DNA of 64,000 nucleotides from Candidatus Spechtbacteria bacterium SB0662_bin_43 (lineage in GTDB: Bacteria > Patescibacteriota > Minisyncoccia > Spechtbacterales > 2-12-FULL-38-22): NCBI GenBank assembly GCA_009839835.1, contig VXOY01000010.1:4025-68024 (forward strand), in the 5' to 3' direction. Shown piece by piece: positions 4,757-24,031 of this stretch (positions are counted from its first letter, which is position 1; each line of letters starts with the position of its first letter). The position numbers were made by a program, and so were the translations under genes. Below the pieces are notes generated by a model. The model ran no database searches. It had not been told where the DNA came from and worked only from the letters and a program-made list of their open reading frames with translations.

Positions 4757-4823
4757 AATTCGCTCCACAAAGAACCTACGGTACAGCGCTGGATGCAGGA
4801 CGATAGTTCTGTACTTTACTATA

Positions 4824-6065: not shown

Positions 6066-6176
6066 AAACGTAATCAGTAATGTTCAATGATTGAGAATAT
6101 TGGCATATTGTCATCCCTCCATTTTTTTGTTATGATATTTTTGCTGTTATTCATAGTATGAAATAAATTATAGAGT

Positions 6177-6668: not shown

Positions 6669-6852
6669 AGGACATCTATAGGTGCCTGTGTTTTGATATG
6701 AGCACCTTTTCATCACCCATAGATTGATTGTGGTATGTGCTGTGTGTGAGTAATAGTATATTGACTTTTGCACCAGATACTATATTATAGAAGTGAGAAA
6801 TGGTCATTCTCAATTCTTAATACCATATAATTAATGTGCAGAAAATACAGAT

Positions 6853-7224: not shown

Positions 7225-7236
7225 ATTTTATGTAGC

Positions 7237-7270
7237 AAAAAACCCTGCATCATACACTGCAGGGTTTTTT
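7237..7270. terminator. Rho-independent terminator hairpin (bidirectional type, A-tract / stem / T-tract)
   Basis: aaaaaaccctgca-tcatacac-tgcagggtttttt. Confidence 0.6.
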
Positions 7271-7283
7271 GTTGGCATAACCT

Positions 7284-7973
7284 ATGCAGTTTGATATTTT
7301 TACATTATTCCCCGATATCATTGATTCGTATAAGGGTGAGTCCATCATACGGCGAGCCATAGATGCTGGTGTTTTGCGCGTCCATAGCCATAACATCCGT
7401 GACTGGGCGCACGACAAGCACAGCACGGTTGACAATGTTCCGTACGGAGGTGGAGCAGGCATGGTGATGAAGGTAGAACCAATTTATAGGGCGATATGCG
7501 ATTGCTCGCTGTTTGAAATCAAGACAACAGAGCGTGGACTTGTACATAGCGATAAGCAACGGATTATTTTGTTGTCTGCAAAAGGGGAGCGGTTCACACA
7601 ACAAAAGGCACAAGAATTAGCGCAATACGAACACATTATGTTGATATGTGGGAGGTACGAAGGCGTTGATGAACGAGTTACGACCTATATTGCGGATGAA
7701 GAGATTTCTATTGGTGAGTACGTTTTGACAGGAGGAGAGATCCCCGCGCTCGTTCTTTTGGACGCTGTTGCGCGTCTCCACAAGGGCGTATTGGGGAATG
7801 TTGAGTCGCTCAAAGAGGAGTCGTTTACCACAGGTCACCCAAAGGAGTATCCGCACTACACCAGGCCTGCGGTTTTTTCTCCAAAACCAGGCGTGGAATG
7901 GAAAACACCCGATATTCTTTTGTCGGGGAATCATCAGGAAATTCAAAAGTGGAGGCAACAAGATTCTCGGTAA
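7284..7973 (+). CDS. trmD: tRNA (guanine37-N1)-methyltransferase
   Basis: MQFDIFTLFPDI...VPYGGGAGMVMKVEP TrmD signature. Confidence 0.9.
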   Translation: MQFDIFTLFPDIIDSYKGESIIRRAIDAGVLRVHSHNIRDWAHDKHSTVDNVPYGGGAGMVMKVEPIYRAICDCSLFEIKTTERGLVHSDKQRIILLSAKGERFTQQKAQELAQYEHIMLICGRYEGVDERVTTYIADEEISIGEYVLTGGEIPALVLLDAVARLHKGVLGNVESLKEESFTTGHPKEYPHYTRPAVFSPKPGVEWKTPDILLSGNHQEIQKWRQQDSR

Positions 7974-8508
7974 GAGTGAAGAAGAAAGCGGTATGTTAAT
8001 GGAGGGTACGTATGAAAATCCCACACTTTAATTCAGTGTGGGATTGATAGGAGGTGTGTCTTGGAAGTGAAAGTACGCAGTAGAGGAATCGTTGAGTTTT
8101 TGTACTTGTAGCGTGCCACAGATGATGCACTCCAAGATGAGTTTTGCAATGTCGTAAAACGTAAAGGTGCGACATGTGCACCGTATGCAGGACGTTATTC
8201 CTTCTACTCCTCTGAACATCACTTCTCCTTTCTGGTATCAGTACACTGTATTTATACACTATATTCGATGTAGTATCAATTGTATTGATGGTATGTAGGC
8301 GAAGGGGCGAGTACTGTTTTCAACAATCACATCAATCAATAGTACAAGAGTAGATTGTTCGTATGCAAGACATCAAGGATGTGCAGTGCTGTGTGTGGCA
8401 GGGTTCTTGACTTTATATATTAGTGTGTTATTCTATAGATAGTTCTTGAACACAAGACCTCTGCATGTGTTGTGAATACAGGGGTTTTCAAAAGAAAGGA
8501 AGTTTCTG

Positions 8509-9300
8509 ATGGCTACGAAGGACTATCCTGCATTGAGCAGGGAGCCTTTGCGGGTTCATCACAGGGCTGTCGTGGGATTGAGCGATAAGAACCTACGCGG
8601 ACAGGAGATGATGGACGAGTTCCTCATAGGATCGTTCTGGAGGAGAATCTTTGATGGAGTCAAGGAACCATTGTTTGAGTGCTATGATGAGTACATGACG
8701 TTGGATCTTGTTGTGCTCACGCCACAAGAGGTTGGATTGCACACAGACAATAGGATTTCTTTGTCATCTTTCTTCTCGCACGTTGTGCGCACTTTTCCTG
8801 AATTAGAGCTCGTAAAGCCAGAAGTTGCTTTTCGGGTACAAAGAGACTACGATCTGGAGATTGGGGAGGCACACTATTTTGCGATTCCTCAACCAGGCGT
8901 CATCATGCGTGACTACGATCTTGGTACGCGGGAAATAGGGTTTGGTCTTTCGCACGGAGGCCTACGACTGATGGGTGTGCCGCACTTGCAAAAAGAGAAC
9001 GCCGTGTATCGGATTCTACAACCTGTTCCTCGTTACGACATCCATTGGACTAGACACGATGTCAGGTGGGTGTTTGCGTTGAAGGCGCAGGTTGATATGG
9101 GTGCGACGCCCACTGATGAGAATATTCGCGAGTCCTCTCACCAGAGCAGTGGCAATACTGGTGTTTCGTATGACGCACGGAGTCATTACCAAACAGCGCA
9201 GAATGGTGATGGGTTAATCTTTGATGACAAGTCAACGGAAGAACAGATGGACAGGGATCTTGACGACGCACTGTCATTTCTGAAGAGAGTCCACCGATGA
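8509..9300 (+). CDS. Hypothetical protein, GC-rich (~55%) gene with GAAAGGAAG SD-like leader
   Basis: Clean 263-aa ORF. Composition clearly higher GC than flanks. No recognisable motifs. Confidence 0.55.
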   Translation: MATKDYPALSREPLRVHHRAVVGLSDKNLRGQEMMDEFLIGSFWRRIFDGVKEPLFECYDEYMTLDLVVLTPQEVGLHTDNRISLSSFFSHVVRTFPELELVKPEVAFRVQRDYDLEIGEAHYFAIPQPGVIMRDYDLGTREIGFGLSHGGLRLMGVPHLQKENAVYRILQPVPRYDIHWTRHDVRWVFALKAQVDMGATPTDENIRESSHQSSGNTGVSYDARSHYQTAQNGDGLIFDDKSTEEQMDRDLDDALSFLKRVHR

Positions 9301-9468
9301 CTCCCTGATACGGCAGAATACACATTCTGCCGTTTTTCTTTTTTAATATGCGAATGTAAGTCTGGTTGCAAGGATACAGGTGTTGACAAAATCATATATA
9401 TATATAATCATAGTGGTTCCAGTCATACGATTGGGATAGAGACTGTGCTCAAGAAAGGAGCGTAGGAA

Positions 9469-10590
9469 ATGACAGGTTCGAGCGTGATACGGAGCCAGGG
9501 ACCCAAGCGCTACAATCACTTCACGGGCAGGAGCGTTTTCATCTCCACTGTGCGTGGCGGCCGACCCGACAAGAAAAAGACCAGTGTACAACATCCTGTG
9601 GTGCAACGCGATCCATTCGTTGACCCCCAGGCGTTCGGGAACGAAGATCCAGTGTTTCAGTACACCGATCCTGAAACCCAGGACTGGCTGGTGCAGATCA
9701 TTCCAAACCTGTGGCCCATTCTTTCTCTTGAACGAAAGGAACGATTCGACAGAGATGCGATTATTGGAGAAGGATTTCACGAGGTGGTGATCACAAAAGA
9801 TCCCACCTACTCCTTCGCGGACTTCTCGCAGCAATACACAGAGCTTGTGTTGAAGGCTCTTGCTATGCGGTCAAACGCGATCCTTCGTGAGTGCCCGAGC
9901 ATTAAGGAGATTTCTATCTTCCAGTGCTATGGGTTACAGGCAGGAGGCTCTCAACCCCACCCTCATCTACAGATCTTCGCTCACAACGATGTTTCACCAG
10001 AGGTGAAACATCGCGAGGAGATGATGCTTCTCTTCTGGAAGAAGCACAACATCAATGTGATTGATGCTGTGATACAGGATGCAGAAGAGGATCCAAGTCT
10101 GGTTGTCTACCGCAACAGCAGTTACGTGGTCGTTTGTTCGCACGCACCCTCAGCCGAATACGAGGTTCAGATTCTGCCAACCTACACAGAAAAGACCGCC
10201 TACACGAACCGAGGCTTGAACGCGGAAATGTTGGACGATCAGAGGAGAAGGGATCTTGCTGAGGCACTGAATGTCGCGACTCGCGCACTCAAAATCGCCC
10301 TGAATGATCCTCCGTACAACATCTTGGTTCGTTCCCTTACGAAGGGTATGGCGAACATGATTATTCCTACGGACCAGCATTTTCTCGGATGGTACATTGA
10401 CATTCGTCCCACCTACGGCTACCAGCCGTTTGGGCTCCAGCCGTTACGGGGAGACGATACAGTGACCGTCGAGCCCGAGTACGCAGCAAACGATTTGCGC
10501 CTTGCCTTAAAGCATCCTGATTTCCCAAACAGGGAACAGATGTCGTGGCAAGACCAGTACGCCAACACGATCGCGATGCTGGTTCAGTAG
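9469..10590 (+). CDS. HIT-superfamily GalT-branch nucleotidyltransferase/phosphorylase-like protein (GalT/Apa2-like)
   Basis: GGSQPHPHLQIFA matches the GalT H-x-H-x-Q active-site block (cf. SNPHPHGQIWA). Upstream VQIIPNLWP resembles the (V/I)PNK(F/Y)P block. GC-rich, GAAAGGAG leader. Confidence 0.65.
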   Translation: MTGSSVIRSQGPKRYNHFTGRSVFISTVRGGRPDKKKTSVQHPVVQRDPFVDPQAFGNEDPVFQYTDPETQDWLVQIIPNLWPILSLERKERFDRDAIIGEGFHEVVITKDPTYSFADFSQQYTELVLKALAMRSNAILRECPSIKEISIFQCYGLQAGGSQPHPHLQIFAHNDVSPEVKHREEMMLLFWKKHNINVIDAVIQDAEEDPSLVVYRNSSYVVVCSHAPSAEYEVQILPTYTEKTAYTNRGLNAEMLDDQRRRDLAEALNVATRALKIALNDPPYNILVRSLTKGMANMIIPTDQHFLGWYIDIRPTYGYQPFGLQPLRGDDTVTVEPEYAANDLRLALKHPDFPNREQMSWQDQYANTIAMLVQ

Positions 10591-10657
10591 AGATCCGAAC
10601 CATCCGCTGTTCAAACCTCTTGTTCGTTCGCGCCAATGATCCAGCGCGAAGATGCAC

Positions 10658-10697
10658 AGACCCCGTAGCACGCAACCAGCGTGATACGGGGTCTTAT
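10658..10697. terminator. Terminator-like hairpin after GalT-like gene
   Basis: agaccccgta...tacggggtct stem followed by a T-rich tail. Confidence 0.45.
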
Positions 10698-10721
10698 TGA
10701 ATTACGGGTTTTTCTGTGTCT

Positions 10722-11114
10722 CTACTTTTGTTCTTTGATGTATCGCTTCTTTTGGTAGATGTACCTGAACGACAAGAATAGTAGTGGAGATCCTACTACG
10801 ATGTCTGCCACTGCTTGTGAGATAGCTCCTTGGACTCGCTTCCTATCGTTTTTCTTACAGTTTTCGTATCGTTCCTTTTGCGCTTTTTCATCCTCTTTGT
10901 CGTACGAGTCGTATACTCTGATGTACTCGTTTTCCAAGCATCGCGAATCTGCTGAAAAAACGTATGTATACATCACATTGCGCACCAAAGATATGACTCC
11001 GTATGATGTGTAAAAAAAAGATGATAAAAAGACAATAGCAAGCGCTATTGAAAAAATGGTCTTTGAGAAACTCGCCAACGTAATAGACGTTACTTTATGA
11101 TTTGAGTGCTCCAT
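10722..11114 (-). CDS. Hypothetical small membrane protein
   Basis: 130-aa ORF with two hydrophobic helices; no family recognised. Confidence 0.45.
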   Translation of the reverse strand: MEHSNHKVTSITLASFSKTIFSIALAIVFLSSFFYTSYGVISLVRNVMYTYVFSADSRCLENEYIRVYDSYDKEDEKAQKERYENCKKNDRKRVQGAISQAVADIVVGSPLLFLSFRYIYQKKRYIKEQK

Positions 11115-11231
11115 AGGACAATGAATAAATAATATCTTATTCTATGGTATCACAATCGAATATATATATATATATGATTTTTGTGGATAAAGACGAACGC
11201 TCGCTGTGTCAGGTGCAGACAGTGTTCCAGT

Positions 11232-12116
11232 TTATTCCGTATCAGGTATAGGTAGCATTCCTGTGAACGAGAGTTGTGCTGGACCACTCATATACACTGG
11301 TTCACTTTTGTTGTTGGTGCCATCCCATTGCATTTTTAAGTCACCACCTGGCAGCGAAACTGTTGCTTGTTTATCTGAAAGTCCACGAAGTCGCGCAGCT
11401 ACTAATACAGCGCACGCGCCAGACCCGCAGGCGAGCGTGACACCCACTCCGCGCTCCCATACCCGCATTTTGATGTGATGTGGCGATACTATGTTTGCGA
11501 CTTCAAAGTTCGTTTTGTTTGGAAAGTCAGGGTGTGTTTCTACGATTGGACCAATGTCAGTCAGCGGGAAATCGTCTATTGGCATGTCAATGAACAGTAC
11601 TGCGTGCGGGTTTCCCATTCCTATACACGCTAAGTCGTAGGTTGTATTGTTGATTTGTAGTGTATGGTGTATGTCTGGTGATGATTGAGCATTGAGAACA
11701 GGGATGGTCTCTGGGTCTAACACAACAGGCTCCATAGCAACACGTACGCTATCTACAATTGACCCAGACATATGTATCTCTACTTGCACTATACCTGAAC
11801 CAGTTTCAACCGTTATATTTCTGTTTTTTGGTTTGAAATCGGCACGCTCAATGAGATATTTAACAAAACAACGAATTCCATTACCACACATATCGCTATA
11901 TGATCCATCTGCATTTACGATAACCATATGAGCATCAGCATTATTACTATCTGCTGCAATAAGAATTCCATCTGCGCCAATACCAAAGTGACGATCGCAA
12001 ATTTTTGGTGTTATCATCGTCCAGTCTCTATTTAGAAAATGACTGTTGGAGCCCAATGCATCAATCAGTATAAAATCATTACCAATACCCTGAACTTTTG
12101 TGAATGGAATAGACAT
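11232..12116 (-). CDS. dapF: Diaminopimelate epimerase
   Basis: FTKVQGIGNDFILID and MCGNGIRCF catalytic Cys blocks. Confidence 0.9.
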   Translation of the reverse strand: MSIPFTKVQGIGNDFILIDALGSNSHFLNRDWTMITPKICDRHFGIGADGILIAADSNNADAHMVIVNADGSYSDMCGNGIRCFVKYLIERADFKPKNRNITVETGSGIVQVEIHMSGSIVDSVRVAMEPVVLDPETIPVLNAQSSPDIHHTLQINNTTYDLACIGMGNPHAVLFIDMPIDDFPLTDIGPIVETHPDFPNKTNFEVANIVSPHHIKMRVWERGVGVTLACGSGACAVLVAARLRGLSDKQATVSLPGGDLKMQWDGTNNKSEPVYMSGPAQLSFTGMLPIPDTE

Positions 12117-12870: not shown

Positions 12871-15408
12871 ATGGCAAATTCCAAAGAAGCACAATCACGG
12901 ATAAAGATTAACAAGTTTTTAGAAGACGCAGGGTGGCGGTTTTTTGATACAGAAAAAGGTGAGGCAAACATTCGGCTTGAAGCCAGTGTAAAAATAACCC
13001 AACAAGATATTGATGAAATGGGAGAGGATTTTGAGAATACCCAAAGAGGATTTGTAGATTATTTATTGTTGGATGATAAGGGATTTCCTTTTGTTGTCTT
13101 GGAAGCAAAGAGAGAAGGTAAAAATCCATTAGATGGTAAAGAACAAGCACGTAGGTACGCCCAGTCGCAGAATGCCAGGTTTGTTTTACTATCAAATGGC
13201 AATACGCATTACTTTTGGGATTTGGAAAGCGGTAACCCAGAAGTTATTATAGAGTTTCCAAAACAAGAATCATTGTTGCATCGTTCAGGGTTTCAGCCAG
13301 ATAACCAACGGCTATCCAGTGAAAGCGTTAAAGAGGATTATATTGCTTTGACGCAAAATCCAAACTATAAAGAGGATCCTCGTTATCGGGACAAAAGCAC
13401 AAGGGAAGAATATCTCTCTCAGGAGGACTTACGAATTTTACGTCCCTATCAACTCAGAGCAATTCATGCATTACAAAAGAGTGCTGGTGAAGGTAGTACC
13501 AGGTTTCTCTTTGAGATGGCAACAGGTACAGGGAAAACTCTTGTGGCAGGTGCGGTTATAAAACTTTTTTTGAGAACAGGCAACGCGAAACGAATTTTGT
13601 TTTTGGTTGATAGAGTAGAATTAAAAAATCAGGCGTATGATAATTTTAATACTTACTTAAAGAACGATTGCACATCTGTTATTTATAAAAACAACAGAGA
13701 CGACTGGCAGAAGGCAGAGATAGTCATCTCAACTGTTCAGAGTCTTGCTTCTCAAGATAAGTATAAGAAGTTTTCGCCAACTGACTTTGGCTTGGTGATT
13801 TCTGATGAGGCACACCGCTCAATTGGAGGGAGTAATGGGAATTATAGGGCAGTGTTTGAGTATTTTGTCGGATATAAGTTGGGACTCACCGCAACACCAA
13901 AAGATTACTTGAAAAATGTTGATTCACAAAAATTACCTCAAAAAGACCCTCGTGCGTGGGAACGTAGGCAGCTTTTGGATACCTATACGACTTTCGGTTG
14001 TCCAAGCGGTGAACCAACATTTCGTTACACACTAATCAGTGGTGTGAAAGATGAATATCTTATCAATCCTATTGCTGTTGATGCACGAACAGAAATAACC
14101 ACTCAGTTACTTTCAGAAAAGGGCTATGCTATTATTGCTGAGAATGATGAAGGAGAAAAAGAGGAAGGAGTGTTTTTTCATAAAGATTTTGAGAAAAAGT
14201 TTTTCTCAGATAATACTAATAAAGCATTCTGTGGGACGATTATTAAAAATGCTCTGCGAGATCCTATCAGCAGAGAAATTGGCAAGACCATTGTGTTTTG
14301 TGTTAGACAGAGCCACGCTTCTAAGATTACACAGATATTGAATCAAATGGCGGACAAAGTGTGGCCTGGCAAATACAACTCTGACTTTGCGGTACAGGTC
14401 ACATCAAATGTTCCTGATGCTCAACAAATGACGATGAATTTCGCAAACAATAATCTTACAGGACGCACCAATTTTCTCCCTGGTTATAAGTCAAGCAAGA
14501 CAAGAGTATGTGTAACAGTCGGGATGATGACAACAGGATATGACTGCAAGGATATTTTAAATCTTGCGTTGCTTCGTCCTATTTTTTCTCCAACAGACTT
14601 TGTGCAGATTAAGGGACGAGGTACCCGTAAGTTTACCTTCGGGTACAAAAATGAAGATGGGGAAGAGATAAAGAAAGAAAAAGATACATTCAAGATGTTT
14701 GATTTCTTTGCGAACTGTGAGTATTTTGAGGAAAAGTTTGATTATGATGAGGCACTCCAATTGTCAGTTGCACAGAGGAATGGCAGTAGTTTTTCTGCGG
14801 ATGATTTCAGCATCCAAAGTACGATGGACGAGGCAACTACTTATGCTCCTGATACTGTTACTCGGTACAAAGAAAAGCAGATTAGCAGTGCAGGGATGAA
14901 AGTAGATCGTAAATTATTTGAAAAAGCCAAAGAAGAAATTGGAAAGGATAAAGATATTCAAGATGCTGTTATGCAAGAACAGTGGGACAAGGCAATCAAT
15001 ATCACTGTGCATAAGTATCAAGATAAGCCTGAGCTCTATATCAATCTTGATAAACTTCGTCGTAGCGAGAGCTTAGATAGACGATTGACGTGGCGTGAGG
15101 TATTAGAGCGAGTATTTGGATTTGTTGATACCTTTCCATCAAAAGATGAAAAATTAGAGGAAGAATGCGAGAAGTTTATCTCTATTGATAAGCCCAAGAG
15201 TAAGTATGTACCATATATTAAGAATTTTATTAAGGCATACCTTACAGATGAAAGGTTTCATGCAATTATTGAAAACAGAAACTATGGAGAGCTCAATAAC
15301 TACGCGGGTTTTCCAATGTCAGATTTTAAGGCATTAGGAGAAGATTTACGCAAGAAATTACCCGAATACATAAAAGATTATATACCCATCAATCAATATA
15401 AGGAATAA
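12871..15408 (+). CDS. hsdR: Type I restriction enzyme R subunit (compact, 845 aa)
   Basis: N-terminal HsdR_N nuclease MANSKEAQSRIKINKFLEDAGWRF...DYLLLDDKGFPFVVLEAKREG. SF2 motifs EMATGTGKT (I), DEAHRS (II), LGLTATP (III), TTGYDCKD / QIKGRGTRK (V/VI). Confidence 0.85.
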   Translation: MANSKEAQSRIKINKFLEDAGWRFFDTEKGEANIRLEASVKITQQDIDEMGEDFENTQRGFVDYLLLDDKGFPFVVLEAKREGKNPLDGKEQARRYAQSQNARFVLLSNGNTHYFWDLESGNPEVIIEFPKQESLLHRSGFQPDNQRLSSESVKEDYIALTQNPNYKEDPRYRDKSTREEYLSQEDLRILRPYQLRAIHALQKSAGEGSTRFLFEMATGTGKTLVAGAVIKLFLRTGNAKRILFLVDRVELKNQAYDNFNTYLKNDCTSVIYKNNRDDWQKAEIVISTVQSLASQDKYKKFSPTDFGLVISDEAHRSIGGSNGNYRAVFEYFVGYKLGLTATPKDYLKNVDSQKLPQKDPRAWERRQLLDTYTTFGCPSGEPTFRYTLISGVKDEYLINPIAVDARTEITTQLLSEKGYAIIAENDEGEKEEGVFFHKDFEKKFFSDNTNKAFCGTIIKNALRDPISREIGKTIVFCVRQSHASKITQILNQMADKVWPGKYNSDFAVQVTSNVPDAQQMTMNFANNNLTGRTNFLPGYKSSKTRVCVTVGMMTTGYDCKDILNLALLRPIFSPTDFVQIKGRGTRKFTFGYKNEDGEEIKKEKDTFKMFDFFANCEYFEEKFDYDEALQLSVAQRNGSSFSADDFSIQSTMDEATTYAPDTVTRYKEKQISSAGMKVDRKLFEKAKEEIGKDKDIQDAVMQEQWDKAINITVHKYQDKPELYINLDKLRRSESLDRRLTWREVLERVFGFVDTFPSKDEKLEEECEKFISIDKPKSKYVPYIKNFIKAYLTDERFHAIIENRNYGELNNYAGFPMSDFKALGEDLRKKLPEYIKDYIPINQYKE

Positions 15409-15415
15409 TAAAGTT

Positions 15416-15485
15416 AGTTTACATCTCTTGACGAGATATAAACTAAATCGCATTTTAGTTTATATCTATAGGTAAGATGTAAACT
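15416..15485. promoter_or_regulatory. Nested perfect palindrome (A-B-loop-B'-A') in the hsdR / AlbA_2-gene spacer; candidate operator or RNA hairpin
   Basis: agtttacatct(15416-26) ... gatataaactaaa(15435-47) tcgca tttagtttatatc(15454-66) ... agatgtaaact(15475-85). A further gatataaacta copy at ~15558. Confidence 0.4.
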
Positions 15486-15597
15486 AAAATAAAAGATAGT
15501 TTTTGTTGACTGATGAAATCTGAGTTAGGTCGCGATTTAATGTATAGTGATAGGCGTGATATAAACTATTGTCCAAAAATATGCCATAATAAATAGC

Positions 15598-17031
15598 ATG
15601 GATGATATCGTGAATACAATTCTGAATATCCCAGAAGAGACACAAACCATTGAGTTTAAACGTTTAGCTGGCGATAAAGTTGTTCGTAAGATTTTGCAGA
15701 CTATCGTTGCTATGGCAAATACTGATGGCGGAACGATTATCTTAGGCGTTGATGACCCAGAGAAGACAGCATTGAAGGGATGTGATAGGATTTTCGGAGT
15801 TGAAGAGGATAAGGTTTTGCTTGATGAGATTTTGAAAGAGCAGTCAAAAATTAATCCACAACTTCAAGGTATTCAGTTTCGCCATATCAAGGCACAAGGT
15901 GATAAAACAATTGTTTTGATAACAGTTGAAAAATCTAAAGAATCATTAGTCTCATTGAGTAATGATGTTTTTACTCGTCTCAATAAAAGTAATAAAAAAT
16001 TAAACCCACAAGAAATTGTAAAGTGGAGTTATACCAAAGGATTTATAAAGGCGGATAAAGAATTGGTGGATGTGGATTTTGAACTTTTACAGACAAAATA
16101 TTTTGATGTCTGGTGCGGTGCAATGGGTATCTCTGGAGGAACCATCCAAAGCATTTTATCTCAGGCTGGTTTGGCAAAAAAAGGTCAGGAAGAAATCTTG
16201 CGACCAACAAGAGCAGCCGTTCTACTTTTCGCCGAACATCCTACTTACCTAATGGAAATACATTGTACTGTGCGAGTTATACAACTCCGAGGCACATTAG
16301 AACGATTTGAGACTGTTCCTAATTATGTTAGTAAGCCAAAAACTATTGGTGGTCCAATCATAGAAGTAATTCGTAATTCTCACGAGTATGTTTTGAGTTT
16401 ATTGGGGGCAGGTATAGAAATTCATTCTGGTTTTGTTAATACTTTTAAGATTCCCGAACGAGCAGTGAAAGAGGCTATTACGAATGCTGTCATACATCGT
16501 GATTACCGTATTCAAAGAGATGTTGAGATTCGTGTTTTTGAAGATAGAGTTGAGGTATTAAGTCCTGGGCTATTTACTTATAATATAACTGCGAATAATA
16601 TAGGGTTCGTGCGTGCAGATGGTGAGAGGAATGATTTGCTGGTCAAACATCTGCGAGAATTTCCTAATCCACCGAATTTAAACTTCAATGAAGGCGTTCG
16701 TGCAATGAGGGCGGAAATGGATAAGCAAAATTTATACCCTCCGATTTTTATGACATACCCTACATACCCTGACTCTGTGAACGTTATTCTCCTGAACGAA
16801 GAAAGACCGACAGAGTGGGAAAAGGTAAGACTATACCTATCAAGAAATAGGTATATTGATAATAAAACAGCAAGAAACATAACAGGGGTTGTACAAATGC
16901 ATGATATGTCACGTATGCTCAAGAGATGGACAGAGCAAGGATTTTTGGTAAAAATTGATGCCGAGTCTAAGTATTTTAAGGGTACAAAATATAAATTAGC
17001 AAATATTGATGAGATGGGTATAGAGCAGTGA
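15598..17031 (+). CDS. AlbA_2 (Schlafen-like, divergent AAA) + HATPase_c_4-like + wHTH protein embedded in the hsd operon
   Basis: N-terminal ETQTIEFKRLAGDKV...MANTDGGTIILGVDD (AlbA_2/pfam04326-like). C-terminal EAITNAVIHRDY block typical of the RecG-C-terminal-like HATPase_c_4 domain. Stop 17031 sits 10 nt before the hsdM start. Confidence 0.7.
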   Translation: MDDIVNTILNIPEETQTIEFKRLAGDKVVRKILQTIVAMANTDGGTIILGVDDPEKTALKGCDRIFGVEEDKVLLDEILKEQSKINPQLQGIQFRHIKAQGDKTIVLITVEKSKESLVSLSNDVFTRLNKSNKKLNPQEIVKWSYTKGFIKADKELVDVDFELLQTKYFDVWCGAMGISGGTIQSILSQAGLAKKGQEEILRPTRAAVLLFAEHPTYLMEIHCTVRVIQLRGTLERFETVPNYVSKPKTIGGPIIEVIRNSHEYVLSLLGAGIEIHSGFVNTFKIPERAVKEAITNAVIHRDYRIQRDVEIRVFEDRVEVLSPGLFTYNITANNIGFVRADGERNDLLVKHLREFPNPPNLNFNEGVRAMRAEMDKQNLYPPIFMTYPTYPDSVNVILLNEERPTEWEKVRLYLSRNRYIDNKTARNITGVVQMHDMSRMLKRWTEQGFLVKIDAESKYFKGTKYKLANIDEMGIEQ

Positions 17032-17040
17032 GAGTTTTAC

Positions 17041-19512
17041 TTGCAAACCCAAATGCAAGTAAAACTTAAAACCCCATTAAATAGGCAAAAAACAGCATCT
17101 TTACTTGCAAATCACTCAAAATTCACTATGTTAGATGCAGAAACAAAACGACACATTGATGCAGCAAGGCAAGTTCTTGTTGGTAAGGTGCCAGACCCAA
17201 AGGCGCAAGTAGACCAAATTACCACAGCCTTGATTTACAAGTTTATGGACGATATGGACAAAGAGTCGCAGGAGCTTGGTGGTAAGGCACAATTTTTCTC
17301 TGGGGATTTTAGTCAATATTCGTGGACGAAGATTTTAGATAGTAAATTATCTGGACAAGAGCGATTCAATTTGTATAATGAAGCAATTAAGAAGATGCCT
17401 CGCAATGAAAATATACCCCAACTTTTCAGAGATATTTTCAAAGATGCACTTCTACCATATCGCGATTCTGCAACTCTTTCACTGTTCTTGAAAGAGATTG
17501 ATAATTTTACATACGATCATAGCGAGAATCTGGGCGATGCATTTGAATATCTACTCTCTATACTTGGCTCGCAAGGGGACGCAGGTCAATTCCGCACACC
17601 TCGTCATATTATTGATTTTATTGTTGATGTTGTAGATCCAAAAAAGAATGAGACTATTTTGGATCCTGCGTGTGGAACAGCAGGCTTTCTTATATCCGCG
17701 TACAAGCATATTGTTGAAAATAATGATGGCAAGGATAATAAAACAGGAGAATTAACAGATAAAGAAACAACCTTAACACCAGACGAAAAACAGCGACTGG
17801 TCAAGAACGTTGTAGGGTATGATATTTCGCCCGATATGGTGAAGCTATCGTTGGTGAATATGTATCTTCATAAGTTTACCAGTCCGCAGATCTTTGAGTA
17901 CGATACTCTTACCAGCGAATCAAGATGGGATGATCAATTTGATGTAATCCTGGCTAATCCACCATTTATGACACCAAAAGGTGGTATTCGTCCACACAAG
18001 CGATTTTCCGTTCAAGCGAGTCGTTCCGAAGTACTTTTCGTGGATTACATTTTGGAGCATCTTAACTTAAAAGGACGTGCAGGTATTATTGTGCCTGAAG
18101 GGATTATATTCAAAGCAGATAAAGCATATAAATCACTCCGTAAGAAATTGATAGATGATGGATTGGTTGCTGTCGTGAGTTTACCTGCAGGCGTGTTTAA
18201 ACCATACTCAGGCGTAAAAACATCAGTTTTATTTTTTGATAATCAGGTTGCAAAAACAACAGATGAATTATTGTTTATAAAAATAGAAAATGATGGGTAT
18301 GAACTTGGAGACCAGAGGAGAAAAATCAAGGAGAATGATTTACCCGAAGCACTGGAAGTATTACAGCAATGGAAGCAGGGTAAGAAGAAAGAAAGCGAAC
18401 TTGCTTTATGGGTGAAGAAAGAAAAAATCGCAAAAAGCGAGGATTATAGCTTGGTAGGCGATAGATATGGAGAAGTAAAAGAAAACAAAAAGCAAAAATA
18501 TCCAATGGTGGAACTGGGAGAGGTTTGTGGTTTTCAGCGTGGCACAATGATTACGAAGAATATGACAGAAGAAGGCGATGTTCCTGTAATTGCGAGCTCT
18601 AAACGACCTTCGTACTACCACAATCAATCTAATAGACAGCCGCCTACGATTACAATATCATCATCTGGTGATGCTGGTTTTGTCAATTTTTTTGAGATTC
18701 CTATATTTGCATCTGACTGTTTTACGGTAGAACCCTTAGATAAAGATCAAATCAATATCTATTTTCTTTACTCTATACTAAAATCAAAACAAGAGTGTAT
18801 CTATAAACTGCAGAAAGGGGTAGCGCAGAAACATGTGTATCCAAAGGATATATCAACAATCAAGATTCCTCTTCCGCCACTTAAAATTCAACAACAAATC
18901 GTGGAAGAGATTGAAGTAAAGCAAAATGCCATCAATCATGCTCAAGAAATCATCAAAAATCTAGAGAGAGAGAGATTGTATTTTGGTAACGAAATTAGAA
19001 AACTAAAAAATGTAAAATGGGTTGAATTGGGTGAGGTGGTACAGACGATTGTTCCACCAAAAAAGATTAAAAAGAGAGATTTTGCACAAGTGGGAGATTA
19101 TCCAATTATAGATCAGTCACAGAGTCAGATTGCTGGGTGGAGTAGTGATGAATCTGCGGTTGTTAAAATTCAAAATCCTGTGGTAATATTTGGCGATCAC
19201 ACGTGCGCTATAAAATACGCTGATAGGCCGTTTATTCAAGGTGCTGATGGTTGTAAAATACTAGAGGTGTGTAGTAATTTGATGCCTAAATTTTTATTTT
19301 TCTATTTAAAAAATCACCCTATTCAAAAAGAAGGGTATAAGCGCAATTTCACTAGACTCAGGTTACTCAAAGTTCCTCTCCTGTCACATGAAATTCAAAA
19401 ACAACTCGTCGCAGAAGCAGAAAAAGAAGAAGCAATAATCAAAGCAAACCAAACCCTTATTAAAATAATGGAAGATAAGATTGATAAGGTTTTGCGGGAG
19501 GTAGGCAAGTAG
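17041..19512 (+). CDS. Type I R-M methyltransferase-specificity fusion (HsdM N-terminal ~480 aa + full two-TRD HsdS)
   Basis: HsdM motifs DPACGTAGFL (motif I) and ILANPPF (motif IV). S part: two TRDs, each opened by VELGEV, separated by the conserved IPLPPLKIQQQIVEEIE central repeat. Confidence 0.85.
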   Translation: MQTQMQVKLKTPLNRQKTASLLANHSKFTMLDAETKRHIDAARQVLVGKVPDPKAQVDQITTALIYKFMDDMDKESQELGGKAQFFSGDFSQYSWTKILDSKLSGQERFNLYNEAIKKMPRNENIPQLFRDIFKDALLPYRDSATLSLFLKEIDNFTYDHSENLGDAFEYLLSILGSQGDAGQFRTPRHIIDFIVDVVDPKKNETILDPACGTAGFLISAYKHIVENNDGKDNKTGELTDKETTLTPDEKQRLVKNVVGYDISPDMVKLSLVNMYLHKFTSPQIFEYDTLTSESRWDDQFDVILANPPFMTPKGGIRPHKRFSVQASRSEVLFVDYILEHLNLKGRAGIIVPEGIIFKADKAYKSLRKKLIDDGLVAVVSLPAGVFKPYSGVKTSVLFFDNQVAKTTDELLFIKIENDGYELGDQRRKIKENDLPEALEVLQQWKQGKKKESELALWVKKEKIAKSEDYSLVGDRYGEVKENKKQKYPMVELGEVCGFQRGTMITKNMTEEGDVPVIASSKRPSYYHNQSNRQPPTITISSSGDAGFVNFFEIPIFASDCFTVEPLDKDQINIYFLYSILKSKQECIYKLQKGVAQKHVYPKDISTIKIPLPPLKIQQQIVEEIEVKQNAINHAQEIIKNLERERLYFGNEIRKLKNVKWVELGEVVQTIVPPKKIKKRDFAQVGDYPIIDQSQSQIAGWSSDESAVVKIQNPVVIFGDHTCAIKYADRPFIQGADGCKILEVCSNLMPKFLFFYLKNHPIQKEGYKRNFTRLRLLKVPLLSHEIQKQLVAEAEKEEAIIKANQTLIKIMEDKIDKVLREVGK

Positions 19513-19529: not shown

Positions 19530-20234
19530 ATGGATTCTGTATATCAAATTTTTGATTATTTACCGATTAGATATCAGATAGACAGCGATTTTGATTATTT
19601 TGAATTTCTCAAAAACTCAGTAGAACAAAATTATCACATAGAGAATTATCATTTTGCAAGCATTGCACTCCACATGGTGTTTATGGGGATTGTATACCAT
19701 CACCTTTATATCTTGACTTGTGAGAGTGGTGGAAGACGAGATGCTCTGTTAAGAGATTCTAAGAAGATTCGTAATCAATACAATAAAAGAGGGAAAGTAT
19801 TGTCTTGGCAAAATTTTTCATCAGAAAATGAGCGTAGTGTTTTTAAATTCTTGAAGACTGTTGGAGCAAAAAATGATATGATTGATCAGTTGAAGCAGTT
19901 AGTTGATCAACGCAATGACTTAGTCCATACCAACGGATCGCTTTTGCAAGATCAGGTGCTTTTCGATGAGAAGGCAAATGACTATTTGCAAGGTATTAAA
20001 AATATCCACTATGTTTGTAGAGAGGAATATAAAAATTTATTTTTGAAGTTCTTGAATGAACTTCAATTTGATATTGAGGATATTCAGGATGCCGAGATGT
20101 ATCTTGAAAATTTCATTCGTAAATATGCTGTTAGCAGAAATTTACTTTCACATCTCGGAGATATAGTGCCAAAGAGTAGATATCTCCAAGGAACCCAATT
20201 ACTGTATAGTATTATTCAGGACAGGGGTTTGTGA
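19530..20234 (+). CDS. Hypothetical 234-aa protein, possible HEPN-like (R-x4-H) Abi-type component; 18 nt after hsdMS stop
   Basis: Soluble, helical-looking sequence. Single R-x4-H motif QRNDLVHT. Operonic spacing with hsdMS. No firm family call. Confidence 0.55.
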   Translation: MDSVYQIFDYLPIRYQIDSDFDYFEFLKNSVEQNYHIENYHFASIALHMVFMGIVYHHLYILTCESGGRRDALLRDSKKIRNQYNKRGKVLSWQNFSSENERSVFKFLKTVGAKNDMIDQLKQLVDQRNDLVHTNGSLLQDQVLFDEKANDYLQGIKNIHYVCREEYKNLFLKFLNELQFDIEDIQDAEMYLENFIRKYAVSRNLLSHLGDIVPKSRYLQGTQLLYSIIQDRGL

Positions 20235-20362: not shown

Positions 20363-22081
20363 ATGAGGTATACAAAATTTACAATTCAGAACTATAAGGG
20401 AATAGTTGGTCCGCTTATTGTTGATACTCATAAAATATCCCTCATGCCAATTATTGGAGTCAATGAGTGTGGTAAAACTACAATTTTGCAGGCAATTTTC
20501 GGTTTTGATTATTCTAATGATGTTTTCAATAAGACTGTTCAGCATTTGGAGGATATACATAATTTATATGAAACTAGTGATCAAACTCCCATCATCAGTG
20601 CGGAGATTGAGATAACAAATGATGAAATAAAAGATATTTTGGAAGAATTAGTTAATGATAATCAATGGTCTGATAAGGCACAGGCATATTTAGGATACTG
20701 TAAAGATATAAGTTTTACGTTTGCTATTGATAGAAATATGAGGACACGCAAGTATAATATTAAGTATAGGAAATTTACAGACAAAAATTTTAATCATGTA
20801 TTTGCTAAATCCATTATAGAAAAACTACCTTTCATTCTTTTCTTTGATGATTTTCGTGATAATATAGAAGAAAAAATTGAGATTAAAAAAGATTCTGACG
20901 GTAATCTCAGTGGATGGCTTGCGATAGTAGATCGCCTCTTTCGGGTTGCAGATGAAAATTTTGATATCCTACAGCTACCTAGCCTGGAGGAACGTAAGCA
21001 AAAAACAATTTTGGCCGCAGTAAATAAATTACTTAATGACACTCTAACACAAGAATGGCAGAATTTTAGACTTGATGACAAAGAGGCCCTGGAAATACAA
21101 GTGGACTATAAGCAGGAATCGGAGATGGTGGCGAATGGACAACCCGTACATAGGCACTTTGTGAGGTTTGATGTCGTAGAGAAAGATAAGGATGGCTATA
21201 AACATTTCTTTTTCGTTAGAAATCGTAGCAAGGGATTTTTCTGGTTTTTTAACTTTGTGATGAAATTGGAGTTCAATCCTAAATTAGTAGATAGTGCAGA
21301 AGGTGCAATTTATTTATTGGATGAACCAGGATCGTATCTGCATGCATCCGCACAAACAAAGCTATGCGAGAAATTGAAGTCATTGTCTGGTACCAATATA
21401 GTTTTGTACTGCACCCATTCTCATTATCTTCTTGATCCTAACGTAATACCATTCAACAACATCAAGGTGGCAGAGAAGAATCCCAGAAATTTTGCAATAA
21501 GGTTATTTCCCATTCATCAAGCTAGTGTATCTAGGAAAAATTCCAGATCAGCATTTCAGCCAATCATGGATGCACTCAAGATTAACCCCTTCGCACTAGA
21601 TATTAATCCTAATGAATGTGTGCTGATTGTTGAAGGTATAGATGATCATTATGCTTTTGAGATGTTGAAGGGCGATAGAAACGTTAAAATCCTGCCAGGA
21701 GTAGGAGCAGATTCTATACGGTATTTCATTTCACTAATGATTGCGTGGGGAGTTGATTATAGAGCATTGTGGGATAATGATCCAGTTGGGGCAAAAGCGA
21801 AAAAATCGGCAGGAGAGTTTTTCGGCGAAGTTGAATATAAAGATAAATTTTATTTGCTCCCACACGAAAATACCAAAAAGAAAAAGACCATTCTCCAAGA
21901 TTTATTTGATGGAGATGACATTTCCATCATTAAAAAAGAGCTGAGTTTACCCAAAAATACATCATTTAGTAGAGTTATCCAATCTTTATTTCATTCTGAC
22001 AAAAGACAACATGTTTTAAAGAAAGTATCTAAAAAAACAAAAGATAATTTTAAAAGAGTATTTATGATACTGAGTCTTTAA
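20363..22081 (+). CDS. OLD-family ATP-dependent endonuclease (ABC-type ATPase + Toprim)
   Basis: Walker A GVNECGKTT, Walker B/D-loop AIYLLDEPGSYLHASAQ, H-loop YCTHSHY. C-terminal Toprim VLIVEGIDDHYAFE ... ALWDNDPVG. 572 aa, like P2 Old / GajA. Confidence 0.8.
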   Translation: MRYTKFTIQNYKGIVGPLIVDTHKISLMPIIGVNECGKTTILQAIFGFDYSNDVFNKTVQHLEDIHNLYETSDQTPIISAEIEITNDEIKDILEELVNDNQWSDKAQAYLGYCKDISFTFAIDRNMRTRKYNIKYRKFTDKNFNHVFAKSIIEKLPFILFFDDFRDNIEEKIEIKKDSDGNLSGWLAIVDRLFRVADENFDILQLPSLEERKQKTILAAVNKLLNDTLTQEWQNFRLDDKEALEIQVDYKQESEMVANGQPVHRHFVRFDVVEKDKDGYKHFFFVRNRSKGFFWFFNFVMKLEFNPKLVDSAEGAIYLLDEPGSYLHASAQTKLCEKLKSLSGTNIVLYCTHSHYLLDPNVIPFNNIKVAEKNPRNFAIRLFPIHQASVSRKNSRSAFQPIMDALKINPFALDINPNECVLIVEGIDDHYAFEMLKGDRNVKILPGVGADSIRYFISLMIAWGVDYRALWDNDPVGAKAKKSAGEFFGEVEYKDKFYLLPHENTKKKKTILQDLFDGDDISIIKKELSLPKNTSFSRVIQSLFHSDKRQHVLKKVSKKTKDNFKRVFMILSL

Positions 22082-22249
22082 TGTTTGTCTTGTGGAATAC
22101 GTGTGGAAGGATTGGGTATTGTATATTTTGGTGGTGTGATGTATAATGATTGAACCGAAATGTACAAGGTATATTTTGGTGTTCTTTGAAAATTGAATAC
22201 GAGTAAATAGTTATACAACAACCATTTATAGTTGTTTCGAATATTTTTT

Positions 22250-23707
<1,458 letters not shown>

Positions 23708-24031
23708 ACATTTTTTTGTAGTTTTTTTCTTTTCTCTATCTTTTTTGAAAAGAGGAAAATGAAGTTGTCGACCAGATAGTATGTTTTGTGTAGTAGTGAT
23801 TTTCCATTGTTCTTTGATGATGGAATTTGATCTACGAACACAACACGTACAACAGCGATGAGGCAGGAATGGTACTTTCATATTCGTATGAAAGTACCAT
23901 TCCTTGCCTTGTCTCTGTATGCTGAAATGAGGGAAAGCATTTTCTTTCTCTGCTTGTAGGCAAGCTACACAGGAGTATGAACCTGTATTTCATATAATAT
24001 TCGGAACAACTATGAGTGGTTGTGTAACCTC

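What the first reader, a model, noticed from the sequence alone, without database searches (positions are those of the whole stretch)
15598..17031. AlbA_2/Schlafen-like + HATPase_c_4 protein inserted inside the type I R-M operon
The gene sits exactly where PrrC-like anticodon nucleases and other abortive-infection modules insert in other type I loci, and appears co-transcribed with hsdMS.

AlbA_2-HATPase_c_4-wHTH proteins are usually annotated vaguely (RecG-like / transcriptional regulator). A defence role guarded by the R-M complex would be a testable hypothesis. The alternative is that it is a regulator of the operon (C-protein-like) acting on the nested palindrome just upstream.
Basis: inference. 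Interest (0 to 1): 0.55.

Follow-up and report, generated by a model that had tools for sequence, protein, structure and literature searches.

The report
Schlafen-type nuclease cassette inside restriction operon
The gene encodes a bacterial Schlafen-like RNA nuclease fused to an ATP-binding switch and a DNA-binding tail, lodged as an optional extra between the two genes of a restriction-modification system; this kind of protein and its link to restriction systems were described in 2025-2026, so it is a new example of a known kind, although how such proteins are switched on is still unknown.

Summary
Window 15598-17031 (+) encodes a 477-aa protein ("X") with SLFN_AlbA_2 and HATPase_c_4 (GHKL) domains and a winged-helix-like tail. 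It lies between an HsdR-like gene and a fused HsdM-HsdS gene.

X keeps every motif that defines an active prokaryotic Schlafen nuclease: E14-x4-E19-x-K21, the VAMAN box, D53, and GHKL E292-x3-N296.

X is an optional insert. In 39 metagenomic loci with the same R and MS genes, none has X, and 33 have R abutting MS. Orthologues at 50-67% identity sit in the same R-X-MS cassette, between Mod and Res of type III systems, or alone.

Across 76 genome loci, restriction-modification genes are about 22-fold enriched at the immediately adjacent, same-strand positions.

The defence, PrrC-like reading is therefore favoured but untested. The regulator reading based on the upstream palindrome is not supported, because that palindrome is unique to this locus.

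The class (pSlfn HisKinase-HTH, or "Schlatpase") and its R-M/BREX linkage were published in 2026, so this is a new member of a known kind.

One thing appears new. A conserved ~95-nt element follows the X stop codon, with three co-varying arm copies. I found no description of it and cannot assign it a function.

The parts
12871..15408 (+). HsdR-like restriction subunit, 845 aa (HSDR_N nuclease region + ResIII/SF2 motor)
   Evidence: Pfam ResIII 1.6e-38 and HSDR_N 3.7e-08. PADLOC REase_I 4e-60. NCBIfam EcoAI/FtnUII family match below cutoff. 69% identical to the R genes of L005 and L090.
15414..15487 (.). Two 13-7-13 inverted repeats (15414-15446 and 15455-15487) that can also nest into one long hairpin.
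   Evidence: The motif TTAGTTTAYATCT occurs four times here and nowhere else exactly in the window. It is absent from 139 other loci.
15557..15568 (+). Lone copy of the palindrome arm (GATATAAACTA) overlapping a TGnTATAAA extended -10-like motif, 33 nt before the X start codon. Possible promoter of X (inference).
   Evidence: Sequence read; arm match. Solo orthologues show TGnTATAAT-like motifs in the same position.
15598..17031 (+). X: Schlafen/AlbA_2 nuclease domain + GHKL (HATPase_c_4) ATP-binding domain + winged-helix-like C-terminus, 477 aa
17032..17127 (+). X-associated 3' element (XAE): arm A1 at 17035-17045, 8-nt loop, arm A1' at 17054-17064, 34-nt spacer, and a second direct arm copy A2 at 17099-17109 that ends 18 nt before the MS start codon
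17128..19512 (+). Fused HsdM-HsdS (N6_Mtase + two target-recognition domains). The open frame begins at TTG 17041, but the homologous start is ATG 17128 (MLDAETKRHID...).
19530..20234 (+). 234-aa accessory protein with a weak HEPN-like match
   Evidence: Pfam HEPN_RiboL-PSP 0.0017, below cutoff. Homologues at 30-32% identity lie directly after MS in L125 and L135.
20363..22081 (+). OLD-like ABC-ATPase + TOPRIM protein, 572 aa
   Evidence: Pfam AAA_15, AAA_21 and OLD-like_TOPRIM. PADLOC Old 8e-17, AriA, GajA.

Best explanation
X is a member of the prokaryotic Schlafen nucleases of the 'HisKinase-HTH' / 'Schlatpase' architecture: Schlafen RNase domain, GHKL ATP-binding domain and a winged-helix tail.

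It is carried on a small cassette, made of the gene plus a conserved ~95-nt 3' element. That cassette has been inserted between the R gene and the fused M-S gene of a two-gene type I-like restriction system. In relatives it sits between Mod and Res of type III systems or next to other restriction/BREX-like methylases.

The most likely mode of action is inferred by homology to RzAgo and RorSlfn5 and is not shown here:
- ATP binding to the GHKL domain drives oligomerisation.
- Oligomerisation assembles a competent Schlafen active site.
- On an infection cue, that site cleaves tRNA (or other RNA) and arrests translation.
- X thus acts as a second-line, abortive-infection layer expressed together with the restriction system, much as PrrC/RloC do in other type I loci.

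Shown here: the architecture, motif conservation, optional-insert status, and enrichment next to R-M genes. Inferred: RNase activity, ATP gating, the defence phenotype, and any coupling to the R-M complex. The trigger and the role of the winged helix are unknown.
For: - Domains score above Pfam cutoffs.
- The PADLOC SLFN-pAgo profile matches X residues 26-401, corresponding to profile positions 51-437 only. That stretch is the N-terminal part lying before the Ago core.
- E14-x4-E19-x-K21, N41 of the VAMAN box, D53 and GHKL E292-x3-N296 are invariant in 27 orthologues. They are conserved in nearly all covered positions of 85 loci down to 27% identity.
- The same residues are the catalytic ones in SLFN14 (E211A structures) and SLFN11 (E209A), in RzAgo (E(x)4(D/E)xK, SAFAN box, E314/N318) and in RorSlfn5 (E15/D20).
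- Fold matches: DIP2311 (3lmm) at 8e-19, Schlafen N-domains at 1e-4, and weak pyruvate dehydrogenase kinase/histidine-kinase Bergerat folds.
- The R-X-MS cassette recurs in L005 and L090, with all three genes at comparable identity.
- 0 of 39 related R-MS loci have X.
- Type III Mod-X-Res arrangement in L009, L015, L024 and L075.
- Positional enrichment OR 22.5, p = 8e-14, all on the same strand. Pfam counts of nearest neighbours agree.
- Slots around R-MS hold other defence genes: PDC-S06/PrrC-like, Ppl-like, a DRT reverse transcriptase, PD-T7-like proteins.
- Literature: pSlfn HisKinase-HTH is 19.2% of pSlfns (PMC13056530). Schlafen-minimal histidine kinase-wHTH proteins are linked to BREX loci as 'backup suicidal effectors' (PMC12839542). 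Schlafen-ATPase-DNA-binding clusters are tightly associated with R-M (PMC13462974). The Schlatpase supradomain and ATP-driven tetramerisation are described in bioRxiv 10.64898/2026.05.29.728809.
Against: - No activity or phenotype was measured.
- In the one published screen that included HisKinase-type pSlfns, only the DUF262 and Ig-like fusions protected E. coli (PMC13056530). Defence by this architecture is therefore still unproven.
- Many close orthologues are solo, with no R-M gene nearby (L002, L008, L088, L091). Any dependence on an R-M complex cannot be obligatory.
- The same protein sits in type I, type III and type IIG/BREX-like contexts. This argues against a specific protein-protein guard contact of the PrrC-EcoprrI kind.
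- The AF2 model is only moderate (pLDDT 76.5, pTM 0.48).
Confidence: 0.6

Rival explanations
1. X is an autonomous defence gene that merely hitch-hikes. R-M operons and their junctions are insertion hot spots in defence islands, and X needs nothing from the restriction system for sensing or activity.
For: - Solo orthologues with intact motifs exist.
- The R|MS junction and the post-MS slot also hold unrelated cargo, such as an MNT-like nucleotidyltransferase, small ORFs, a reverse transcriptase, and AAA_13 proteins.
- Distant homologues sit in prophage-like spots between a repressor and an integrase.
- SLFN-pAgos show no conserved partner (bioRxiv 10.64898/2026.05.29.728809).
Against: - Enrichment is sharply confined to the immediately adjacent, same-strand positions rather than spread over the island.
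- In operon-embedded loci the X start overlaps or abuts the upstream stop codon, which suggests selected co-expression.
- HisKinase-type pSlfns expressed alone gave no protection in the published screen.
Confidence: 0.25
2. X is chiefly a transcriptional or translational regulator of the operon. It would act through its winged helix on palindromic DNA: either the upstream 15414-15487 palindrome or the conserved 3' element in front of the MS gene.
For: - X has a conserved winged-helix-like tail.
- The window has palindromes plus a lone half-site in front of both X and MS.
- The 3' element has three co-varying arm copies at fixed spacing of 19 and 63-64 bp, the latter about six helical turns. 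This would suit cooperative binding by an oligomer.
Against: - The upstream palindrome is unique to this locus.
- Orthologous cassettes have no upstream intergenic space.
- Strict conservation of nuclease and ATPase catalytic residues is not explained by a pure regulator.
- The recognition helix does not track the arm sequence type.
- The 3' element also follows solo X genes whose downstream neighbours are housekeeping genes or lie on the opposite strand.
- L005 has a separate small HTH gene in the classical controller position.
Confidence: 0.12
3. X is a toxin-like addiction module. It would stabilise the restriction cassette or island by killing cells that lose it, rather than sensing phage.
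For: The predicted activity (tRNA cleavage) is toxic. X travels with mobile, patchily distributed cassettes.
Against: No antitoxin-like partner gene is conserved next to X. Characterised Schlafen relatives are phage-triggered (PMC13056530, PMC13462974).
Confidence: 0.03

Closest known systems
Prokaryotic Schlafen nucleases of the HisKinase-HTH architecture (pSlfn classification, Taboada et al., Nat Microbiol 2026, PMC13056530); 'Schlatpase' supradomain proteins (bioRxiv 10.64898/2026.05.29.728809)
   Same: AlbA_2/Schlafen domain with E(x)4(D/E)xK, a SAFAN-like box and a third acidic residue. PF13749 GHKL domain with E-x3-N. Short C-terminal HTH. Located in defence neighbourhoods.
   Different: No member of this exact architecture has a demonstrated phenotype or trigger. 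This clade additionally carries a conserved 3' DNA/RNA element and is found inside operons of two different R-M types.
RzAgo, the SLFN-pAgo of Runella zeae
   Same: The N-terminal Schlafen + GHKL module. The PADLOC pAgo profile aligns to X residues 26-401. The ATP-binding residues E314/N318 correspond to X E292/N296.
   Different: X has no PAZ/MID/PIWI core and so no guide-dependent sensor. A ~70-residue winged helix takes its place.
Schlafen-minimal histidine kinase-wHTH proteins linked to BREX and BREX-related loci (NAR 2026, PMC12839542), and the R-M-associated Schlafen clusters of the Cash paper (Nat Commun 2026, PMC13462974)
   Same: Same domain order, and the same interpretation as an operon-embedded backup RNase next to a methylation-based defence system.
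   Different: Those are catalogue-level observations. Here the partner is a two-gene R + fused M-S type I-like system, the insert is shown to be optional, and it is shared with type III operons.
PrrC and RloC anticodon nucleases embedded in type I R-M loci
   Same: A latent tRNA-directed nuclease gene lodged inside an hsd operon. Relatives of this very R-MS system carry AAA_13/PDC-S06/PrrC-like proteins in the adjacent slot.
   Different: The fold and catalytic domain are unrelated: ABC-ATPase + ACNase domain versus Schlafen + GHKL. There is no evidence here of silencing by the R-M complex.
DIP2311 of Corynebacterium diphtheriae (PDB 3lmm, structural genomics)
   Same: Best fold and sequence match over the whole protein.
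   Different: 15-18% identity, and no function is assigned to it.

Membership tests
Prokaryotic Schlafen nuclease, HisKinase-HTH / Schlatpase class | Schlafen/AlbA_2 domain (PF04326) above the curated cutoff | tested here: met
   65.5 bits against a cutoff of 25.3, residues 14-136. Fold matches to SLFN13/11/12/14/5 N-domains.
Prokaryotic Schlafen nuclease, HisKinase-HTH / Schlatpase class | Nuclease motif E(x)4(D/E)xK, SAFAN-like box, third acidic residue | tested here: met
   E14-TQTI-E19-F-K21, V37-A-M-A-N41 and D53 are invariant in 27 orthologues and conserved across 85 loci. They align to SLFN14 E206/E211/D249. The motif definition comes from the preprint.
Prokaryotic Schlafen nuclease, HisKinase-HTH / Schlatpase class | GHKL/Bergerat ATP-binding domain (PF13749) with the Mg/gamma-phosphate ligands E-x3-N | tested here: met
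   40.1 bits against a cutoff of 26. E292 and N296 are invariant in all 85 loci. Weak Foldseek matches to PDK2/4 and histidine kinases.
Prokaryotic Schlafen nuclease, HisKinase-HTH / Schlatpase class | C-terminal helix-turn-helix domain | tested here: inconclusive
   No Pfam HTH hit. The AF2 model shows a three-helix + two-strand unit at residues 406-467 with pLDDT 85-90. Foldseek matches to MarR, AspA, Stf76 and ESCRT-II winged helices have poor E-values.
Prokaryotic Schlafen nuclease, HisKinase-HTH / Schlatpase class | Metal-dependent tRNA/RNA cleavage, ATP-dependent oligomerisation, phage defence phenotype | not testable with these tools
   Requires biochemistry and phage assays.
SLFN-pAgo | Argonaute core (PAZ, MID, PIWI) C-terminal to the Schlafen-GHKL module | tested here: not met
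   X is 477 aa. The PADLOC pAgo profile (1121 positions) is matched only over positions 51-437.
PrrC / RloC anticodon nucleases | ABC-type ATPase N-domain plus C-terminal anticodon-nuclease domain | tested here: not met
   X has no PrrC, AAA_13 or PDC-S06 match in Pfam or PADLOC.
PrrC / RloC anticodon nucleases | Gene embedded in a type I R-M operon | tested here: met
   Order R-X-MS on one strand. The same cassette occurs in L005 and L090.
PrrC / RloC anticodon nucleases | Kept latent by the cognate R-M complex and released by a phage anti-restriction factor | not testable with these tools
   Needs co-purification and infection experiments. The occurrence of solo orthologues argues against obligatory dependence.
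Controller (C) proteins of R-M systems | Small Xre-type HTH protein of about 70-100 aa | tested here: not met
   X is 477 aa with two enzyme-like domains. L005 carries a separate 69-aa HTH_3 gene before hsdR.
Controller (C) proteins of R-M systems | Conserved palindromic operator (C-box) upstream of the regulator in orthologous loci | tested here: not met
   The upstream palindrome motif is absent from 139 other loci. In orthologous cassettes the X start abuts or overlaps the upstream stop.
Type I restriction-modification system (the host operon) | HsdR with nuclease + SF2 motor; HsdM gamma-class N6-adenine methyltransferase; HsdS with two target-recognition domains | tested here: met
   Departure from the canon: M and S are one polypeptide. 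The R match to the EcoAI family model is below its cutoff (252 bits against 550).

The most novel reading that the evidence does not exclude
The X cassette is a self-contained plug-in: a latent Schlafen tRNase plus a previously undescribed ~95-nt 3' control element. The element's two mutually exclusive helices (A1:A1' next to the X stop codon, and A1':A2 next to the following start codon), or its three phased binding sites, would couple expression of the downstream methylase or restriction gene to X, or hold X inactive. This would let the cassette insert into operons of different restriction types without breaking them, and fire when restriction is blocked.
Probability: 0.2. Interest if true: 0.7.

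Novelty: new member of a known kind. Interest (0 to 1): 0.4.

Why it matters
Schlafen nucleases are an antiviral effector family shared by bacteria and humans. The Schlafen-GHKL(-HTH) architecture is by far the most common bacterial form, yet it has no demonstrated trigger or phenotype.

This locus and its relatives offer a compact, comparable test system. The same orthologue occurs with and without a two-gene restriction system, and also within type III systems. That allows a direct test of whether restriction systems carry Schlafen 'backup' nucleases in the way some carry PrrC.

The conserved 3' element, if functional, would be a new piece of how accessory defence genes are wired into operons.

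Tried and rejected
- **E. coli genomes:** no DNA match for the island.
- **NCBIfam:** no model matches X.
- **Rfam:** nothing in 15350-17250 at E <= 1.
- **RecG-like helicase (common database name):** rejected, since no helicase domain is present.
- **Phage-borne 3' element:** two exact-pattern scans of viral contigs returned only isolated palindromes, without the spacer, the third arm or X.
- **Sigma-70 promoter in the 3' element:** the consensus scan finds none there. The spacer lacks a consistent TAnnnT hexamer (read).
- **Small ORF in the 3' element:** not conserved. The in-frame extension of MS in the window is coincidental.
- **Co-variation of the winged-helix recognition helix with arm type:** not seen.
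- **Integron attC or dif-like site:** the 11-13 bp arms with a 6-8 bp centre, and the hybrid arms in arrays (L088, L008), are suggestive. However, no integron core motifs are present, there is no site on the upstream side of X, and empty R|MS junctions show no target-like site. This is left open at low weight.
- **Window 234-aa protein versus the 249-aa protein in the equivalent slot of L010:** no similarity.
- **Strand bias of wobble pairs as a test of RNA versus DNA:** 27 G-U against 14 A-C, too weak to decide.
Full report
**What is there.**
Window 12.8-22.1 kb is a low-GC block (0.31-0.40, against about 0.5 on either side) of five genes on the + strand. It lies between dapF (- strand, 11232-12116) and a 16S rRNA gene (22246-23718). 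The five genes are:
- an HsdR-like protein (12871-15408; HSDR_N + ResIII);
- the flagged gene X (15598-17031);
- a fused HsdM-HsdS protein (N6_Mtase + two Methylase_S stretches);
- a 234-aa protein with a weak HEPN-like match;
- an OLD-like ABC-ATPase/TOPRIM protein.

X scores above the curated cutoffs for SLFN_AlbA_2 (residues 14-136) and HATPase_c_4 (residues 308-386). First, hsdM and hsdS are one gene. Second, by comparison with about 40 homologues that gene starts at ATG 17128 (MLDAETKRHID...), not at the TTG of the open frame at 17041. X and MS are thus 96 nt apart.

**What X is.**
X belongs to a large, tightly conserved family: 1554 hits, with the best 120 all 55-67% identical and about 475 aa long. 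These come mostly from metagenomes, and several sources name them as Patescibacteria/CPR lineages.

In an alignment of 27 orthologues the invariant residues include E14, E19, K21, N41, D53, and E292, N296, H300, R301, D302. They form three motifs:
- E14-x4-E19-x-K21;
- a VAMAN box followed by GG...G-x-D-D53;
- E292-x3-N296.

A profile of the family matches the structural-genomics protein DIP2311 (3lmm) and the nuclease lobes of SLFN14, SLFN11 and Slfn13. In those matches, E14/E19/D53 fall on SLFN14 E206/E211/D249. E211A and SLFN11 E209A are the catalytic mutants used for deposited structures.

The published definition of the active bacterial Schlafen site is E(x)4(D/E)xK plus a SAFAN box plus an acidic triad. 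The published GHKL ATP/Mg ligands in RzAgo are E314 and N318. RorSlfn5 is inactivated by E15A/D20A. X meets all of these.

Across 85 loci down to 27% identity, these positions are conserved wherever the alignment covers them, with E/D alternation at position 19 exactly as in the published motif.

The AF2 model is moderate (pLDDT 76.5). It shows an N-terminal alpha/beta domain, a central region, a GHKL-like domain, and a confident C-terminal three-helix/two-strand unit. Foldseek returns 3lmm (8e-19), Schlafen N-domains (about 1e-4), and weak matches to PDK/histidine-kinase folds and winged helices. PADLOC's SLFN-pAgo profile aligns to X only over the part that precedes the Ago core.

**X is an optional insert in a two-gene restriction system.**
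The order R-X-MS recurs in two independent metagenomic contexts (L005-7 and L090). R is 69-82% identical, X 63-75% and MS 51-65%.

A reciprocal search started from the window's HsdR and returned 48 loci at 51-70% identity. In 39 of them both R and MS are visible:
- 33 have the R stop 1-15 nt from the MS start;
- six carry some other small insert;
- none carries X.

The slot after MS in these relatives holds a changing set of defence-type genes:
- AAA_13 proteins matching PADLOC PDC-S06 and, weakly, PrrC;
- a Ppl-like protein;
- a DUF4145/PD-T7-4-like protein;
- a UG13b defence reverse transcriptase;
- a PD-T7-5-like protein;
- homologues of the window's 234-aa protein.

The host operon is therefore a hub for accessory defence genes, and X is one such accessory.

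**The association is with restriction-modification in general, not with the hsdR-hsdM gap.**
A scan of one genome per species returned 80 loci encoding relatives at 27-65% identity. R, M, S and Mod profiles were built iteratively from these loci. With them, R-M-like genes occupy 33 of 129 immediately adjacent positions, against 4 of 266 positions four or more genes away (odds ratio 22.5, p = 8e-14). All the flagged neighbouring R-M-like genes (within two positions) are on X's strand. 28 of 76 loci have such a neighbour.

Pfam on the nearest neighbours of at least 200 aa gave the following:
- upstream: Eco57I-type methylase 9, MmeI_Mtase 5, ResIII 5, N6_N4_Mtase 4, N6_Mtase 3, Methylase_S 3;
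- downstream: ResIII 7, DUF1156 3, RE_endonuc 2, AEP-TOTE 2.

In L009, L015, L024 and L075 (X 52-63% identical), X lies between a type III Mod and Res, and its start overlaps or abuts the Mod stop codon. In L010 the order is hsdM-X-hsdS-249 aa-OLD-like-hsdR.

Other close orthologues are solo (L002, L008, L088, L091). Distant plasmid homologues (25-29%) sit between a LexA-like repressor and an integrase, or beside an integrase.

**The upstream palindrome.**
Two 13-7-13 inverted repeats (15414-15446 and 15455-15487) and a lone arm (15558-15568) are present. The lone arm overlaps a TGnTATAAA extended -10-like motif. As RNA the region could fold into one long nested hairpin (z = -3.8).

The motif is found only here in the window and in none of 139 other loci. 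In L005, L090 and the type III loci there is no intergenic space before X. It is thus a local feature, not a conserved partner of X. It might be a local terminator/insulator or an operator; this remains untested.

A public assembly of the same sequence breaks at window position 15376, just before this palindrome.

**A conserved element after X (not part of the original finding).**
The 96 nt between X and MS are conserved at the DNA level in the three R-X-MS loci. The same element follows X in type III and solo contexts. Its layout is:
- an 11-13-nt arm (A1) starting 0-8 nt after the X stop;
- a 6-8-nt centre;
- the complementary arm (A1');
- a spacer of about 34 nt;
- a second direct copy of the arm (A2), which in seven loci ends 11-18 nt before the next start codon.

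I ran a sequence-agnostic detector over 1.76 Mb on both strands. It required an 11-8-11 palindrome plus a direct arm copy at +62 to +65. It gave 13 hits, all on X's strand and all at the X 3' end. It gave none in 418 kb of X-less R-MS loci.

In an alignment of 14 elements the results were:
- A1:A1' is 96% paired, with compensatory changes at 9 of 11 pairs;
- the mutually exclusive A1':A2 helix is 94% paired, with compensatory changes at 7 of 11 pairs;
- neither was reached by any of 500 shuffles or by any slid register.

A covariance model recovered further instances (L021, L019, L002, L025), again abutting X, and nothing convincing elsewhere. There is no Rfam match.

The window copy folds at -24.3 kcal/mol (z = -4.1). 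In L018 the element precedes X. In L088, L008 and L014 there is more than one unit, some with hybrid arms.

I cannot say what it does. Three-way co-variation fits either an RNA switch between the X stop and the next start, or phased binding sites for an oligomeric protein. The excess of G-U over A-C mismatches (27 against 14) is too weak to decide. The recognition helix of X does not track arm type. A sigma-70 promoter is not supported.

**How X most likely works.**
By homology (not shown here), ATP binding to the GHKL domain drives oligomerisation. This builds a two-lobed Schlafen active site, as in RzAgo. The site cleaves tRNA, as in RzAgo, RorSlfn5 and Cash. X would thus be a translation-arresting second layer of defence, co-expressed with restriction.

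The winged helix could be a sensor of DNA, DNA ends or DNA-mimicking anti-restriction proteins. It could also be an anchor or auto-regulator. Nothing here discriminates between these.

The variety of R-M partners and the solo copies argue against a PrrC-style dependence on one specific complex. The tight same-strand adjacency and overlapping start/stop codons argue for at least selected co-expression.

**Comparison with what is known, and novelty.**
The architecture is the second most frequent bacterial Schlafen form: HisKinase-HTH, 19.2% of 5,930 pSlfns (PMC13056530). It was named the 'Schlatpase' supradomain with a C-terminal HTH.

Its linkage to BREX, R-M and type I CRISPR loci has been catalogued, and it has been interpreted as a backup suicidal RNase (PMC12839542; PMC13462974). 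A stand-alone Schlatpase next to a type I system in Poribacteria has been noted.

In the only screen that included HisKinase-type pSlfns, protection was seen only for other architectures. The function and trigger of this class therefore remain open.

The finding is a new member of a known kind. What this analysis adds:
- the insert is optional in a defined R + fused M-S lineage;
- the same orthologue is shared by type I and type III operons;
- the upstream palindrome is not a conserved partner of X;
- the cassette carries a conserved, co-varying 3' element that I did not find described.

**Verdict.**
- Observation: confirmed.
- Defence reading: favoured, at about 0.6 including some functional link to restriction.
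- Regulator reading: as stated, not supported.
- Interest: 0.4.

Noticed in passing
window 17032-17127 (also L005 11426-11526, L090 4694-4794, L008 8339-8439, L024 8358-8458, and others): A conserved ~95-nt element lies directly after the X stop codon. It has an 11-13-nt arm, a 6-8-nt centre, the complementary arm, a 34-nt spacer, and a second direct arm copy. The three arm copies co-vary between loci, giving two mutually exclusive helices. The element is found only next to X, has no Rfam match, and its function is unknown.
   Followed up: partly
window 15414-15487 and 15557-15568: Two 13-7-13 palindromes can nest into a 74-nt hairpin. A lone arm copy overlaps a TGnTATAAA extended -10-like motif 33 nt before the X start. 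The motif is unique to this locus among 140 loci.
   Followed up: partly
window 17041-17128: The open frame of the fused M-S gene starts at TTG 17041, and a gene caller used ATG 17053. About 40 homologues start at the position of ATG 17128, so the first 29 codons are probably not translated.
   Followed up: yes
L093-L138 (relatives of the window's hsdR): A two-gene system, HsdR + fused HsdM-HsdS separated by 1-15 nt, is widespread in metagenomes. The slot after MS carries varied defence-type genes: AAA_13/PDC-S06/PrrC-like, Ppl-like, DUF4145/PD-T7-4-like, AAA_21. The R|MS junction sometimes holds other small inserts, for example a MarR-nucleotidyltransferase protein in L120.
   Followed up: partly
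window 19530-20234 and 20363-22081: A 234-aa protein with a sub-threshold HEPN match is followed by an OLD-like ABC-ATPase/TOPRIM protein. Homologues of the 234-aa protein (30-32% identity) follow MS in L125 and L135. L010 has an OLD-like gene inside an hsdM-X-hsdS-...-hsdR operon. This may be a separate defence pair.
   Followed up: partly
window 22246-23718: A complete bacterial 16S rRNA gene starts 165 nt after the last island gene. The small ORFs listed there are artefacts. The island thus lies between dapF and an rRNA gene.
   Followed up: no
window 15376 (equals position 1 of L001, ENA scaffold_473): A public assembly of the identical sequence begins at window 15376, inside the end of hsdR and just before the palindromes. 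This suggests an assembly break or strain variation at that point.
   Followed up: no
L088 11429-11575; L008 8342-8480; L014 11483-11646: Here the 3' element occurs as 2-3 tandem units with a 63-64-nt period. In L088 and L008 the second unit has arms of two different sequence types, which pair better with the next unit's arm than within the unit.
   Followed up: partly
L019 1438-5379: An X orthologue (53% identity) is followed by a TOTE-type archaeo-eukaryotic primase fused to a ResIII/helicase protein, instead of an R-M gene.
   Followed up: no
L074 about 8000-11500: Two X-like genes lie on opposite strands (532 aa on - and 517 aa on +), separated by one 418-aa gene on the - strand.
   Followed up: no
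L150 (Streptococcus respiraculi plasmid) 5158-8754; L151 (Caballeronia plasmid) 552-7398: Distant X homologues (25-29% identity, annotated 'ATP-binding protein') lie in mobile-element positions. In L150 the gene sits between a LexA-family repressor gene and a tyrosine integrase gene of a phage-like plasmid. In L151 it is downstream of a site-specific integrase gene and an XRE/DUF4411 gene pair.
   Followed up: partly
window 34285-34377: ARAGORN calls a 93-nt tRNA-Ile(GAT), unusually long, which Rfam's tRNA model did not report at gathering threshold.
   Followed up: no
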